This document shows positions 12,401 through 15,400 of a DNA stretch of 64,000 nucleotides, in pieces (within the stretch, counting starts at the first letter, position 1; every line of letters begins with the position of its first letter). Made by a program: the position numbers. The DNA lies in contig JAWMAR010000041.1 of the NCBI GenBank assembly GCA_036785375.1, positions 8,618,001 to 8,682,000 of the forward strand, in the 5' to 3' direction. The stretch comes from Leucoraja ocellata (lineage: Eukaryota).

Positions 12401-15400
12401 TGTAAATTACATCAAACCATGCCCATGCTGAGGTTAACCCAAAACAGGCCAGTTAACATACTGGTGAGAAAGTAGCCAACTCAATCAGTACTAATGGTTT
12501 AAATCAATAATGTGAGTGAAACTACTGTACTGTAAGAAATTTTAAGTCATTTTCACCACTTGGCTAAGTTATGAACAATACAAGTAAACTCACGTTTCAG
12601 CATTTTCACTGCAACTTTCGTGACAGGCTGTGAGCGACTCAAACCGTATGCAGTTCCTTCAACAACCTTTCCAAATGCCCCGGAACCAAGGATGCGGCCT
12701 TTAAAAAGCACACAATGCACAATAATCAATGTAACATTACAGATATTATCATAAAAATTGTATGGTTTGGGGTTAATTCGCAGAGCAGGAGAAAAGTATG
12801 TGAGAAAGAGCAAATTCTATTCCGGATTTTATAATCCATTCACAATTCACAATTTTCTATGTGGTCTATTTTTTAAATAAATATCTCATGACCAACGGTA
12901 GGTTCCATCACAAAATGCTGGAGTAACTCAGCGGGACAGGCAGCATCTCTGGAGAGAATGAATGGGTGACGTTTCGGATCGAGACCCTACTTCAATCTGA
13001 AGAAGGGTCTCGACCAGAAATGTAACCCATTCCTTCTCTCTTGAGATGCTGCCTGTCCCGCTGAGTTAGTCTAGCATTTTGTGTCTATCTTCGATTTAAA
13101 CCAGCTTCTGCAGTAGTTTCCCACACCGTAGGTTCCATCTCCTTTGGAAAAATTGACTAACTGGTTATTACAAAGGGTATCTGAAGACCAATGGGATACT
13201 TCCTGCGATTTCATATAATTCTACTTTATTACTGATACCTTAAGGTAATTTTAGGAGCACTGTCTTGTATATAAAAAAACAATTTCACATACATTTCAGT
13301 ATCCCCTGGACATCTGATATTACTTTATGGCCACGAACATATGTAAAGTGGAAAAGCAAAGGTGTGTACAACAGGTCGCTCAAAAAACATTATACAGTAG
13401 TTTAGTTCAATAATGTTGGTTTGAAGGAACTATGGGGAGTATAACATTGCTCTTATTCAGATAATACCATTGAATCTTTTCCATCCACTAAGGAGATCAA
13501 ACAGAGCCTTTTTTTGATGCATCACATTCCAAAGAAACTACCTTTGACTCCGGTAGCTGGACTTTGTGTTTAAATCTCTGCATAGGTTTTGAACTCGCAA
13601 GAATGCAACCAGTGAATCAAGATTGGAAGAAGTAAAAATTATACTTCTTTCAAAAGGATTTTTGACATTCTAAATGGTTTAATGCGTCCCGATATTTGAG
13701 AAATTATAATTAATGGCTAATGGAATTTATATTTGTAATCTGAATGCCTCTTTGCAACACAAGACAAGTACTTACCAAGGACAAGTCCTTCCCGAGGAAA
13801 CTCCCATCTAGTATCATAGGGAAGTTGCATCGGGTCAACATAAATATATTCATGGCCATCTGGACTTATGGATTCAATGACTCTCCATCTTATCTCATAT
13901 CTTGGTTTCTACACAAAATAATAAATTGTTTTATATTATTAAAGTAAGACAATTTTTCTGTCAAGCAGAAAGTTATAATAATCTGTTAAAATGTAATTAT
14001 TTTGCACGTTTATTTTATTGACACCATCGTGAGGGTTATCAATTTGAATAGAATAAAAATATTTCTAATAAAACTTGATTATACCTTTGGAGAATGTAAC
14101 TGTATGAACTGCATTAAGCTGTTTTAGGAATCATATAACAGACAGAGGCAGGTTAGGGAGCATGGGAGGATTAGCAGATTCAAGAGCTTTTACTTTAATG
14201 CAAGGATCCTTACTAGTAATTCAGATGATCTTAGAGTATTGATTAGCACGGAATTATGATATCATGGCATATTGTCTAAAGCTGCAGCTAGATACAGTTC
14301 AGATGGAACATTAGGGTGGAGCATCACAGATGCAATTTAATCCTGACTAGATGAGGTGATGCATTTTCTCATGTCAAATAGGGATAGGACATATACAGAA
14401 AAATGCTAAGGCTCTGGGGAATGTTGAAGAACAAATGAGACCTTGAGATTCAAGTCTGTAATTCTCTGAAGTGACAACATAGGCAGATAAATGGGTGAAG
14501 GTATAAGGTAGAATACAAAGGTTAAGGTATTATGTTACAACTTTACAAAACACTGGTTAGGCCGCACAAGAGTATTGTGTGCAGTTCTAGTCGCTGCACT
14601 GTAGCAAGGATGTGGTTGCACTGCAGAGAATGCAGAGAAGATTCACCAGGATGCTGCCTGGATTGAAGGACTTTAATTATGAAGAGATATTGGATAGGCT
14701 GGGCTTAATTTCCTTGGAGTAAACAAGGCTGAGTGGTGGGCAGATAGAGGTGTATAAAATTACAACAGGCAAAAATAAGGCAGATAGTCAAAATCTTTTT
14801 CCTATGGTAGATACAAATTTAAGGTGAGATAAAGGAGTTTTAAAGGAGATTTGAGAACTTTTTTTTGTACAGGGAGAAGTTTATACCTGGAACATTCCAC
14901 CAAAGACGGTGGTGGAGTCAAATACAATAACAAGGTTTAAAATACATTTAGACAGATGCATATATAAGGGATTAGTGTAGATGGAGAAAAGTATTGTCAT
15001 ATATGTGATGGGCCCAAGCTGCTATGTCTGTGACTATAAATTATACTTTCATGCACCAAAGTTAAAGCAAACATTTGTGTGCCTATATTTTTGTCCTCTT
15101 AATGGGTCTTTTGGATATATTTTTTTATTTCTGCCAAAGAATACACTTAGGTTAATTTCACTTTCCTTCATTTGTGTTTCAGGAATTCTAAGACCTCCAG
15201 ATTAGAGAGTTGGAAACGTTGCTTACCTGTTTCCAAACTACAACTAGCACTATCAGAGAAATGATCACGATAACCAGCAGCACCAATACTGCAGCCGCCA
15301 CAGTCAATTCGGAGTGTGGATCTGCAAACCAGTGGTAAAAGACAGTTATTCCAAAAATGTAAAAGCAAGGAACCGCACATACTAGTTTAAAAAATAAGTG

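What the first reader, a model, noticed from the sequence alone, without database searches (positions are those of the whole stretch)
12898..13139. Head-to-head palindromic arrangement with long, variable TSDs
Seen: 12909-13083 is a near-perfect hairpin of about 175 nt with two hammerhead-like cores back to back, one per strand, at its centre. One arm runs on about 45 nt further. The insert is bounded by a 12-bp TSD; sister copies have 13-bp (22529-22757), 15-bp (3261-3357) and 12-bp (62861-62957) TSDs. Established: cut-and-paste MITEs give fixed short TSDs, whereas variable long TSDs and inverted terminal arrangements are typical of target-primed Penelope-type insertion. Inference: these look like MITEs but are retro-transposed. 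A transcript from either strand, including the PDGFRA pre-mRNA, would contain a ribozyme-like core and a duplex of about 85 bp that could feed ADAR or Drosha/Dicer.
Basis: partly seen in the sequence, partly recalled or inferred. Interest (0 to 1): 0.7.

Follow-up and report, generated by a model that had tools for sequence, protein, structure and literature searches.

The report
Penelope-type inverted mini-insertion, skate intron
This is a decaying, hairpin-shaped copy of a very abundant 90-130-base repeat, pasted by reverse transcription into an intron of a skate PDGFRA-like gene in the way Penelope-like retroelements insert; it looks like a DNA-transposon MITE but is an ordinary member of a known kind.

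Summary
Arms 12909-12994 and 12998-13083 are 88% complementary, one arm runs 44 nt further (13084-13127), and a perfect 12-bp duplication flanks the unit.

It belongs to a repeat family with 38 arm hits at 21 loci, covering 5.2% of the window. Each arm starts sharply at a CTGANGA box and ends in one of two zones about 35-40 nt apart.
- 13 of 17 adjacent arm pairs are head-to-head.
- Flanking duplications measure 8-19 bp and far exceed chance.
- One 19-bp duplication is confirmed by two paralogous empty sites.
- All 8 duplication-bounded inverted units have one long and one short outer end.

These features match published Penelope-like element (PLE) insertion anatomy: minimal hammerhead motif, priming on both DNA strands, two internal start sites, a one-sided 30-40-bp tail, and variable duplications. 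A cut-and-paste MITE is excluded.

Limits:
- No PLE gene lies in the window.
- Rfam hammerhead models do not match.
- Helix I is only 2 bp.
- Both cores of this copy are mutated.
- The arms diverge like any two copies, so nothing suggests selection.

Verdict: new member of a known kind. RNA editing or Dicer roles remain untested.

The parts
12898..12909 (.). Left copy of the target-site duplication (GTAGGTTCCATC)
   Evidence: 12 of 12 identical to 13128-13139; 14 of 15 if extended to 12895-12909 and 13125-13139.
12910..12995 (-). Left arm, the short form of the repeat unit (86 nt). It ends just after the TTTGT motif.
   Evidence: nhmmer hit 12908-12994, model positions 2-88; arm length.
12968..12995 (-). 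Degenerate hammerhead-like core of the left arm. This is the core that the host pre-mRNA would carry. Against the family majority, C3 is changed to U and A9 to U.
   Evidence: Rows 12908L. It is not among the 11 pattern matches.
12996..12996 (.). Single central base between the two abutting 5' ends
12997..13127 (+). Right arm, the long form of the repeat unit (128-131 nt; the last 3 nt are ambiguous with the duplication)
   Evidence: nhmmer hit 12997-13112, model positions 1-116.
12997..13024 (+). Hammerhead-like core of the right arm. It passes the loose core pattern, but the closing pair of helix II is broken (C11.1 to A), C15.2 is changed to U and C17 to A.
   Evidence: match CTGAAGAAGGGTCTCGACCAGAAATGTA; compared with the family majority.
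13084..13127 (+). One-sided 44-nt 'tail': the stretch between the short-type and long-type 3' end zones
   Evidence: Literature: a 30-40-bp tail, often at only one end of a PLE insertion, lying between two reverse-transcription start sites.
13128..13139 (.). Right copy of the target-site duplication
12592..12708 (-). Nearest host exon (start of the tyrosine-kinase domain, PDGFRA-like). The insertion lies about 200 nt upstream of it, in the intron.
   Evidence: PK_Tyr_Ser-Thr, residues 40-76 of ORF 12556-12816, - strand. (best PDB matches PDGFRA, E = 6e-15, residues 37-75). The exon limits are estimated from those residues.
22529..22757 (.). Sister inverted unit: left arm long (130 nt), right arm short (93 nt), 13-bp duplication TGTGATAGAATAA
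3265..3357 (-). Sister single short-form copy with a 19-bp duplication (18 of 19) and two paralogous empty sites
62861..62957 (-). Sister single short-form copy with a 12-bp duplication (11 of 12)
60847..61140 (.). Composite insertion inside one 13-bp duplication (12 of 13). It holds an inner-truncated arm plus a full long arm, then a unit whose first ~45 nt are inverted (61012-61140).

Best explanation
The locus is one target-primed retro-insertion of a short non-coding RNA (about 130 nt), made in the way Penelope-like elements (PLEs) insert.

The RNA runs in the hammerhead-sense direction. It has a discrete 5' end 0-6 nt upstream of the CUGANGA box.

Inferred steps:
1. An endonuclease cut both strands of an AT-rich target a variable distance apart. 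That distance gives the 12-bp duplication here and 8-19 bp in sister copies.
2. Both 3'-OH ends primed reverse transcription internally on the RNA, one at a distal start zone (long arm with 'tail') and one at a proximal start zone about 35-45 nt upstream (short arm).
3. Both cDNAs ran to the RNA's 5' end and were joined there. That produces a head-to-head palindrome with the two hammerhead-like boxes back to back.

Shown: the anatomy, the duplications, one pair of empty sites, and the two end zones. Inferred: the enzyme (a PLE reverse transcriptase with GIY-YIG endonuclease encoded elsewhere in the genome), the use of two templates, and the joining step.

Since insertion the copy has decayed neutrally. 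Its ribozyme-like cores are most likely dead, and in a transcript they would be locked inside an 86-bp imperfect duplex.
For: FAMILY AND ENDS.
- There are 38 nhmmer hits at 21 loci.
- 23 of 38 hits start at model position 4 or lower, while the hits' far ends are spread over model positions 37-116.
- Outer ends fixed by duplications fall into two zones. Short arms are 86-102 nt and end 0-15 nt after TTTGTG. Long arms are 120-131 nt and end 7-13 nt after GCAGTTCC.

ORIENTATION.
- 13 of 17 adjacent hit pairs are -+, with the constant ends abutting. The rest are 2 ++, 1 -- and 1 +-, the last inside a composite.
- Constant ends in the centre with priming ends outside is the geometry expected when both target strands prime cDNA.

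DUPLICATIONS.
- 10 of 21 loci score 9 or more, against 1.3% of 3000 random placements.
- The 11 checked pairs of 8 bp or more measure 11, 19, 8, 13, 12, 11, 13, 14, 10, 13 and 12 bp.
- The 19-bp duplication at 3265-3357 is confirmed by two paralogous empty sites that carry the target once.
- The 11 duplications have 32.4% G+C against 42.6% for the window (P = 0.02).

ASYMMETRY. All 8 of 8 duplication-bounded inverted units have one short-type and one long-type outer end. By my arithmetic that is about 0.5^8 = 0.004 if the ends were chosen independently.

INCOMPLETE INNER ARMS AND A COMPOSITE.
- 8 hits start at model positions 33-48.
- In 61012-61140 the first ~45 nt are inverted, and 60847-61140 holds several arms inside one duplication.
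- These fit cDNAs made afresh at each event.

MOTIF.
- CTGANGA..GAAANNTH occurs 11 times against 0.74 expected, and all 11 are family heads.
- The stricter pattern, with G10.1/C11.1 and an S-S dinucleotide at 15.2/16.2, occurs 3 times against 0.01 expected.
- The family majority has the extra base after A9, a G10.1-C11.1 closing pair and the palindromic CG at 15.2/16.2. These are the non-descriptor features listed for PLE minimal hammerheads (PMC4209133).

LITERATURE.
- The Anolis Poseidon element PAc cleaves and extends both strands and starts reverse transcription at two internal sites. The optional 30-40-bp tail lies between them. The start is 111-118 nt into the ORF, which begins at stem II, and the target is AT-rich (PMC11167929). 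Here the long ends lie about 115-123 nt from the first base of helix II.
- An adjacent inverted copy, a tail often at only one end, and variable duplications are described for PLEs (PMC8557442, passages).
- PLEs are reported in a chondrichthyan sample (bioRxiv 10.64898/2026.07.22.740005), in all 23 vertebrates surveyed (PMC4350176) and in whale shark (PMC8455134).
Against: - No PLE gene is in the window. Among the 150 longest of 410 stop-to-stop ORFs of 55 aa or more, there are three RVT_1 hits and no GIY-YIG hit. Two of the RVT_1 ORFs are CR1-like LINE copies. The third lies beside integrase (rve) and RT_RNaseH hits, so I read it as part of an LTR-type element.
- No copy continues upstream of the CTGANGA box into a pseudo-LTR.
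- A sharp 5' end is not what random 5' truncation of a PLE gives. It needs a defined RNA 5' end, whose cause is unknown.
- Rfam hammerhead models give no hit even at E of 10 or less.
- Helix I is only 2 bp, with 72% of cells paired. Covariation over the motif is not beyond shuffles (42 of 500 reach it).
- The tail shows no conserved stem-loop (0 predicted pairs in 12 long tails), whereas PAc is reported to start in an AC-rich stem-loop.
- No vertebrate genome collection was available, so the family could not be tied to an autonomous element.
Confidence: 0.7

Rival explanations
1. A SINE-like retroposon mobilised by a LINE (for example the CR1-like family that is abundant here), with the inverted form produced by L1-style twin priming.
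For: - The CR1-like LINE is abundant and looks recently active: 1165-2571 and 40146-41552 are 97.6% identical over 1408 nt, and many 5'-truncated fragments share one 3' end.
- Variable duplications are also typical of LINE target-primed insertion (established knowledge).
- One unit (61012-61140) has exactly the twin-priming layout, with its 5' 45 nt inverted.
Against: - There is no similarity between the last 100 nt of the LINE and 8 family copies in either orientation (P = 0.12-0.98 against 300 shuffles each).
- The LINE ends in an (ATGTTTCT)-type microsatellite that the unit lacks.
- There is no tRNA-like head: 0 tRNA genes found by ARAGORN and no Rfam hit.
- Most inverted units duplicate the same RNA segment in both arms. 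Classical twin priming on one RNA does not do that.
- LINE partners use one defined 3' end, not two end zones 35-45 nt apart.
- Other LINE families of this genome are not in the window and could not be tested.
Confidence: 0.13
2. The asymmetric palindrome itself (short arm plus long arm, about 225 nt) is the source gene, and it is retro-copied as a unit. Single arms are then truncated products.
For: - It would give the 8 of 8 long-plus-short asymmetry for free.
- The arms of a unit fall in the same visible sequence variant (my reading of the alignment). Partner arms rank 1st to 8th of 22 in identity.
Against: - The central joints differ between units. By my reading of the flanks printed, the spacers are 1, 1, 6 and 14 nt.
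- Incomplete arms lack the inner part, not the outer part: 8 hits start at model positions 33-48 yet keep their outer ends and duplications. That is the opposite of 5' truncation of a dimer RNA.
- Short single arms with their own duplications (3 of 3) would require transcription of the other strand as well.
- Arm-to-arm identity (0.69-0.93) is no higher than identity to other copies.
Confidence: 0.1
3. A cut-and-paste MITE or foldback DNA transposon with long terminal inverted repeats.
For: It has a hairpin shape, is small (about 215-230 bp), is abundant, and is flanked by direct repeats.
Against: - Duplication length varies from 8 to 19 bp.
- The extreme termini are not inverted repeats of each other in 8 of 8 bounded units.
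- Single arms are inserted on their own with duplications, one of them proven by empty sites.
- No transposase domain appeared in the 150 ORFs scanned. The only DDE-type hit is rve, which lies next to reverse transcriptase and RNase H hits, so I read it as part of an LTR element.
Confidence: 0.03

Closest known systems
Dispersed, truncated Penelope-like element copies that carry minimal hammerhead motifs (Cervera & de la Pena 2014, PMC4209133; text read)
   Same: - Type-I minimal core with an extra base after A9, a G10.1-C11.1 closing pair and a palindromic 15.2-16.2.
- Helix I can be as short as 2 bp (D. virilis).
- Motifs occur mostly as single dispersed copies, and sometimes as two motifs close together on opposite strands.
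- They are very numerous in fish, coelacanth and frog genomes.
   Different: - Here the two motifs are back to back, 1-14 nt apart, rather than 100-700 bp apart.
- The copies stop sharply at the 5' edge of the core, so the 5' strand of helix I is missing.
- No cartilaginous fish is named in the text I read (0 occurrences of shark, skate or Callorhinchus). The supplementary alignments could not be seen.
Poseidon element PAc of Anolis carolinensis, studied in vitro (Frangieh et al. 2024, PMC11167929; main text read)
   Same: - Both DNA strands are cut and extended.
- Reverse transcription starts internally at two sites.
- The optional 30-40-bp tail lies between those sites.
- The start lies about 111-118 nt past the start of stem II, against about 115-123 nt for the long ends here.
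- The target is AT-rich.
   Different: - PAc is a full element with an ORF that begins at stem II. The skate unit is about 130 nt long and no PLE-type ORF lies next to any copy in the window.
- PAc starts in an AC-rich stem-loop, and no conserved structure was found in the skate tail.
- No per-event pairing of long and short starts was reported for PAc.
Canonical PLE insertion architecture (Craig et al. 2021, PMC8557442; passages only)
   Same: - Strong 5' truncation.
- An inverted copy abutting the 5' end, which forms inverted repeats.
- A 30-40-bp tail, often at only one end.
- Duplications of variable length.
   Different: Those descriptions concern kilobase elements with pseudo-LTRs. Here the whole insertion is two arms of about 90-130 nt with no ORF or pseudo-LTR.
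Animal non-LTR retrozymes (PMC7229834, abstract in the listing; bioRxiv 10.64898/2026.07.22.740005)
   Same: They are non-autonomous, carry hammerheads and are linked to PLE pseudo-LTRs. They are reported in the one chondrichthyan sampled.
   Different: - Retrozymes are head-to-tail tandem arrays that yield circular RNAs. Here only 1 of 21 loci is a head-to-tail pair of near-complete units (44215-44430), and I read it as one copy inserted into another. 13 of 17 adjacent pairs are head-to-head.
- Retrozymes are said to be excluded from introns, whereas this family sits in introns.
L1 twin priming (5' inversions); recalled from Ostertag & Kazazian 2001, not read here
   Same: Both target 3'-OH ends prime cDNA, priming ends lie outside and 5' ends meet in the middle. 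Unit 61012-61140 has this exact layout.
   Different: Twin priming inverts part of one RNA without duplicating it. Most units here carry the same segment twice.
MITEs and foldback elements
   Same: Small size, hairpin shape and abundance.
   Different: The duplications are variable and long, the termini are asymmetric, and single arms insert on their own.

Membership tests
Penelope-like element (PLE) insertion | Encodes, or is linked to, a telomerase-like reverse transcriptase plus a GIY-YIG endonuclease | tested here: not met
   no GIY-YIG hit in the 150 longest of 410 ORFs. Two of the three RVT_1 ORFs are CR1-like; the third lies beside rve and RT_RNaseH hits. The copy can therefore only be a non-autonomous or truncated product. 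The genome outside the window could not be searched.
Penelope-like element (PLE) insertion | Pseudo-LTR formed by a partial tandem arrangement | tested here: not met
   No copy extends upstream of the CTGANGA box. Only one head-to-tail pair of near-complete units exists (44215-44430), and it looks like a nested insertion.
Penelope-like element (PLE) insertion | Adjacent inverted copy that forms inverted repeats | tested here: met
   13 of 17 adjacent hit pairs are head-to-head. 8 units are bounded by one duplication each.
Penelope-like element (PLE) insertion | Optional 30-40-bp tail, often at only one end, between two reverse-transcription start sites | tested here: met
   There are two outer-end zones: short arms of 86-102 nt and long arms of 120-131 nt. 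The tail is 44 nt in the focal copy. 8 of 8 bounded inverted units have exactly one long end.
Penelope-like element (PLE) insertion | Target-site duplication of variable length | tested here: met
   8-19 bp in 11 loci. Enrichment over chance. Empty sites.
Penelope-like element (PLE) insertion | AT-rich target preference | tested here: inconclusive
   The 11 duplications have 32.4% G+C against 42.6% for the window (P = 0.02). The sample is small and the ATT cleavage motif was not tested.
Hammerhead ribozyme (PLE minimal type I) | Invariant core: CUGANGA, GAAA, and U-H at the cleavage site | tested here: met
   Met in the family majority and in 11 of 23 aligned heads. In the focal locus the right arm passes the pattern and the left arm does not (C3 to U, A9 to U).
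Hammerhead ribozyme (PLE minimal type I) | Helix II with a G10.1-C11.1 closing pair, plus an extra base between A9 and 10.1 | tested here: met
   Helix II is paired in 91% of cells. The closing pair is G-C in 15 and G-U in 5 of 23 arms. The extra A is nearly invariant. The closing pair is broken in the focal right arm.
Hammerhead ribozyme (PLE minimal type I) | Palindromic 15.2-16.2, which allows a dimeric helix III | tested here: met
   The majority reads CG. The strict pattern is met by 3 copies against 0.01 expected. The focal right arm reads TG.
Hammerhead ribozyme (PLE minimal type I) | Helix I (4-6 bp; 2 bp in the D. virilis variant) | tested here: inconclusive
   Only 2 possible pairs exist, in 72% of cells. 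The 5' strand lies outside the inserted unit.
Hammerhead ribozyme (PLE minimal type I) | Match to curated hammerhead covariance models | tested here: not met
   No Rfam hammerhead family is hit at gathering score or at E of 10 or less. Whether Rfam's models cover the minimal PLE variant is not known to me from any call.
Hammerhead ribozyme (PLE minimal type I) | Self-cleavage | not testable with these tools
   This needs an in vitro assay. Published PLE minimal hammerheads cleave poorly even as dimers, or only with the element's protein.
Non-LTR retrozyme | Head-to-tail tandem repeats of a hammerhead-bearing unit | tested here: not met
   Only 1 of 21 loci is a head-to-tail pair of near-complete units (44215-44430); the 2 ++ pairs are fragments inside the complex locus 31669-31931.
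MITE (cut-and-paste DNA transposon derivative) | Fixed-length duplication and matching terminal inverted repeats at both extreme ends | tested here: not met
   Duplications are 8-19 bp. The termini are asymmetric in 8 of 8 units. Single arms insert alone.
LINE-dependent SINE | 3' end shared with a partner LINE; a pol III-type head | tested here: not met
   There is no similarity to the 3' 100 nt of the CR1-like LINE, no tRNA gene and no Rfam hit. Only the one LINE family present in the window could be tested.

The most novel reading that the evidence does not exclude
These units may be 'leader mini-insertions' rather than randomly truncated elements. In this reading the RNA is a capped PLE (or PLE-derived) transcript that begins just upstream of the hammerhead box. 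The PLE enzyme starts reverse transcription at the copy of its internal start signal nearest the 5' end. Each event then yields a run-off cDNA of about 90-130 nt.

The strict pairing of one long and one short start in every two-sided event (8 of 8) would then reflect an asymmetric dimeric enzyme-RNA complex, in which the two subunits use the two start sites on the two DNA strands. Arms that stop at positions 33-48 would mark a folded hammerhead domain that blocks the polymerase.

If this is right, genomic copies of the family are a natural single-event record of the PLE integration mechanism. They would also explain why minimal hammerheads vastly outnumber full PLEs in animal genomes.
Probability: 0.25. 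Interest if true: 0.55.

Novelty: new member of a known kind. Interest (0 to 1): 0.35.

Why it matters
ANNOTATION. The family fills about 5% of this window. Its hairpin form would be called a MITE or a microRNA-like hairpin by shape-based tools: Rfam gives sub-threshold microRNA-precursor hits on these hairpins. Recognising it as a Penelope-type retro-insertion corrects that.

MECHANISM. The copies record the outcome of single integration events: duplication length, which start zone each strand used, and where cDNAs stopped. That is information the in vitro PLE system reports only in bulk.

HOST GENE. The insertion puts an imperfect 86-bp duplex about 200 nt upstream of a PDGFRA-like exon. I found no sign that this has been kept by selection.

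Tried and rejected
- RFAM. Gathering thresholds on the whole window gave 0 hits. E of 10 or less on 12850-13190 and on the whole window gave no hammerhead or other ribozyme family, only weak microRNA-like and chance hits.
- STEM-LOOP IN THE TAIL. I looked for a counterpart of PAc's AC-rich stem-loop. RNAalifold on 12 long tails predicted 0 pairs, so I dropped the idea.
- COVARIATION IN THE CORE. Helix II is 91% paired, but the covariation score is reached by 42 of 500 shuffles. That is not evidence of selection.
- HAIRPIN MAINTENANCE. I asked whether the arms of a unit are each other's closest relatives. They are not: the partner ranks 1st to 8th of 22, and arm-to-arm identity is 0.69-0.93 against a family mean of 0.71. 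Gene conversion or selection for the duplex is therefore not supported.
- PLE NEXT TO THE ARM AT 39179-39297. The ORFs at 39298-41455 belong to a CR1-like LINE. It is a nested or adjacent LINE, not a PLE.
- SHARED 3' TAIL WITH THAT LINE. Not significant.
- tRNA-DERIVED HEAD. None found.
- LITERATURE BY SEQUENCE. Two exact window strings gave 0 papers. The term search 'Penelope' + 'Leucoraja' + 'repeat' returned one paper, which I judged irrelevant from its title.
- PAPERS NOT HELD. Lunse et al. (RNA Biol, PMC5785218) and Pyatkov et al. 2004 (PMC522041) are not held. I know them only through citations.
- END MAPPING. The reference-span column is unreliable because a free-end-gap setting did not take effect. 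I used only the arm lengths and terminal 12-mers from that call.
- LOCI LEFT OUT OF THE LONG/SHORT COUNT. 63527-63745 was dropped because its 7-bp repeat is within the chance range (11.6% of random placements). 52971-53144, 19723-19853 and 31669-31931 were dropped because no duplication was found.
- NOT DONE. No structure, complex or protein-atlas job was relevant. The genome-contig collection holds only bacteria and archaea, so I did not scan it. The collections of search_dna_similar (phages, plasmids, E. coli) hold no vertebrate DNA, so I did not query them either.

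
Full report
WHAT IS THERE.
- The window contains no N.
- At 12898-13139 the sequence reads: a 12-bp direct repeat (12898-12909), an 86-nt arm on the - strand (12910-12995), one central base, a 128-131-nt arm on the + strand (12997-13127), and the second copy of the direct repeat (13128-13139).
- The arms pair over 86 nt at 88% complementarity.
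- Either strand folds into a long hairpin far more stable than shuffled sequence. The + strand gives -147 kcal/mol (z = -16.3; 0 of 200 shuffles as good). The - strand gives -142.3 kcal/mol (z = -14.5).
- The right arm continues 44 nt beyond the paired part (13084-13127).
The one correction is that the '15-bp' duplication at 3261-3357 is the perfect part of a 19-bp one (18 of 19).

THE FAMILY.
- Two rounds of nhmmer, seeded with the right arm, find 38 arm-length hits at 21 loci. They cover 3,314 nt, or 5.2% of the window.
- The unit has one sharp end: 23 of 38 hits start at model position 4 or lower, at a CTGANGA box that is often preceded by a few bases ending in AGT.
- The other end varies.
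- Where a flanking duplication fixes the outer end, it falls into one of two zones. Short arms are 86-102 nt and end 0-15 nt after a TTTGTG motif. Long arms are 120-131 nt and end 7-13 nt after GCAGTTCC.
- Of the 17 adjacent hit pairs, 13 are head-to-head with the sharp ends abutting. Two are ++, one is --, and one is +- inside a composite.

THESE ARE INSERTIONS WITH LONG, VARIABLE DUPLICATIONS.
- A blind search for the best direct repeat across the two boundaries of each locus scores 9 or more at 10 of 21 loci. The same score occurs at 1.3% of 3000 random placements of the same spans.
- Checked by eye and by script, 11 loci have duplications of 11, 19, 8, 13, 12, 11, 13, 14, 10, 13 and 12 bp. 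A twelfth, of 7 bp, is within the chance range.
- The copy at 3265-3357 sits inside another repeat. When the element and one duplicate are removed, the site aligns straight across the junction with two paralogues (42502-42681 and 46449-46636), each of which carries the 19-bp target once.
- The 11 duplications are AT-rich: 32.4% G+C against 42.6% for the window (P = 0.02).

NOT A MITE.
- Duplication length is not fixed.
- Single arms insert alone with their own duplications (3265-3357, 49114-49222, 62861-62957).
- In all 8 duplication-bounded inverted units, the two extreme termini are different sequences, because one arm is long and the other is short.
- A transposase that needs matching terminal inverted repeats has nothing to bind here.

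DIRECTION OF THE RNA AND HOW THE PALINDROME FORMS.
- In target-primed reverse transcription, the priming ends of the cDNAs lie next to the duplications, and the 5' ends of the template lie inside.
- Here the constant ends are inside and the variable ends are outside. The template RNA therefore runs from the CTGANGA box towards the tail, has a discrete 5' end, and is primed at variable internal positions.
- A head-to-head unit inside one duplication then means that both target strands primed cDNA synthesis.
- Three further observations fit fresh synthesis at each event rather than inheritance of a ready-made palindrome:
  1. The central joints differ. By my reading of the flanks, the fillers are 1, 1, 6 and 14 nt in four complete units.
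  2. Incomplete arms lack the inner part (8 hits start at model positions 33-48) yet keep their outer ends.
  3. 60847-61140 is a composite of several arms inside one 13-bp duplication, including a unit (61012-61140) whose first ~45 nt are simply inverted.

COMPARISON WITH WHAT IS KNOWN.
- The family majority at the sharp end reads as a hammerhead core: CUGANGA, an extra base, a G-C-closed helix II, GAAA, a palindromic CG, then U-H.
- The loose core pattern occurs 11 times in the window against 0.74 expected, and every match is a family head. A stricter pattern occurs 3 times against 0.01 expected.
- Cervera & de la Pena list the extra base after A9, the G10.1-C11.1 pair and the palindromic 15.2-16.2 as the features that emerged, beyond their search descriptor, in the minimal hammerheads of PLEs. 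They also report a 2-bp helix I in D. virilis, mostly single dispersed copies, and pairs of motifs on opposite strands (PMC4209133; text read).
- Frangieh et al. show that a purified Anolis PLE cuts and extends both strands. [quoted passage not shown] - The skate unit matches on every one of these points. Its long ends lie about 115-123 nt from the first base of helix II, and its short ends lie 35-45 nt nearer.
- PLEs are reported in cartilaginous fish.

WHAT DOES NOT FIT OR IS MISSING.
- The window holds no PLE gene. Two of its three reverse-transcriptase ORFs are a CR1-like LINE. The third lies beside integrase and RNase H hits, so I read it as an LTR-type element. No GIY-YIG domain appears in the 150 longest of 410 ORFs.
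- No copy runs upstream into a pseudo-LTR.
- The sharp 5' end is unexplained. It could be a transcription start just upstream of the core, or a dedicated non-autonomous master gene.
- Rfam's hammerhead models do not hit, even at E of 10 or less.
- Helix I is at most 2 bp, and covariation is not beyond shuffles.
- The tail has no conserved fold.
- I could not reach any vertebrate genome collection, so the link to an autonomous element remains inferred.
- A LINE partner was tested only for the one LINE family in the window, and was rejected.

THE FOCAL COPY ITSELF.
- The host gene is PDGFRA-like and lies on the - strand. I searched single exons one by one and built no joined model.
- I take the window for a skate or ray, not human, because the named relatives of its LINE come from Leucoraja, Hypanus, Pristis and Callorhinchus.
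- The insertion lies in an intron about 200 nt upstream of the exon at about 12592-12708.
- The pre-mRNA would carry the left-arm core, which has C3 changed to U and A9 changed to U.
- The right-arm core, on the other strand, has a broken helix II closing pair and changed 15.2 and 17 positions.
- In the predicted folds both cores are paired into the long duplex.
- The two arms are 87% identical. That is the same as their identity to other copies of their variant (84-91%), so the hairpin has drifted freely.
- A transcript would still contain an imperfect 86-bp duplex. Whether it is edited or diced cannot be told from sequence.

VERDICT.
- It is a new member of a known kind, of moderate interest.
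- The strict long-plus-short pairing (8 of 8), the sharp 5' end and the recurrent inner stops at positions 33-48 are the details worth a genome-wide follow-up.

Noticed in passing
window 1165-2571 and 40146-41552; fragments ending at the position equivalent to ~41556 (e.g. 11052-11988, 18064-18375, 20632-21265, 44751-44932): A CR1-like LINE family. Two ORF-bearing copies are 97.6% identical over 1408 nt, and many 5'-truncated fragments share one 3' end that carries an (ATGTTTCT)-type microsatellite. It looks recently active. Named relatives of the reverse transcriptase come from skates, rays, chimaera, turtles and birds.
   Followed up: partly
window ~34700-38430 (+): An LTR-type retroelement. 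Pfam hits in order: RVT_1 (35390-36508), RT_RNaseH (36714-36953), Integrase_H2C2 (37180-37437) and rve (37430-38428), split over several frames.
   Followed up: no
window 42425-42720 (copies at 7049-7343, 46394-46635, 58782-58934, 3115-3263 and others) and 43424-43775 (copies at 23424-23782, 26435-26679, 30223-30445): Two further unnamed interspersed repeat families. The first of them hosts the 3265-3357 insertion and supplied the paralogous empty sites.
   Followed up: partly
window 44215-44433 (-): A well-preserved long-form copy (44215-44328) sits inside the tail of an older, divergent copy (44329-44433). The junction falls in the conserved CCAGCATCTG stretch of the tail. It looks like an insertion into a copy of its own kind, as PLEs are said to do.
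   Followed up: partly
window 39179-39302 (-) next to 39298 (+): A long-form arm loses its first ~7 nt exactly where a 5'-truncated CR1-like LINE begins. It first looked like a PLE with an inverted copy, but it is a LINE abutting the arm.
   Followed up: yes
window 22592-22729 (-), 22623-22697 (-): Rfam microRNA-precursor models score below threshold on the sister hairpin: MIR1507 at 40.2 bits against a gathering score of 73, and mir-722 at 31.8 against 81. This is hairpin shape only, but such loci could be mis-called as microRNA genes.
   Followed up: no
window 62332-62886 (-): A Pfam ALKBH8_N match (E = 9e-10) in a 185-aa ORF that overlaps the region of the 62861-62957 copy. Its meaning is unknown.
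   Followed up: no
window 31079-31429, 28578-28892, 24536-24841, 16425-16832, 12556-12816, 10596-10841 (all -): Exon-bearing ORFs of a PDGFRA-like receptor tyrosine kinase, in order along the - strand: Ig-like domains, PDGFR Ig domain 4, and the start of the kinase domain. About 20 family copies lie in its introns and flanks.
   Followed up: partly
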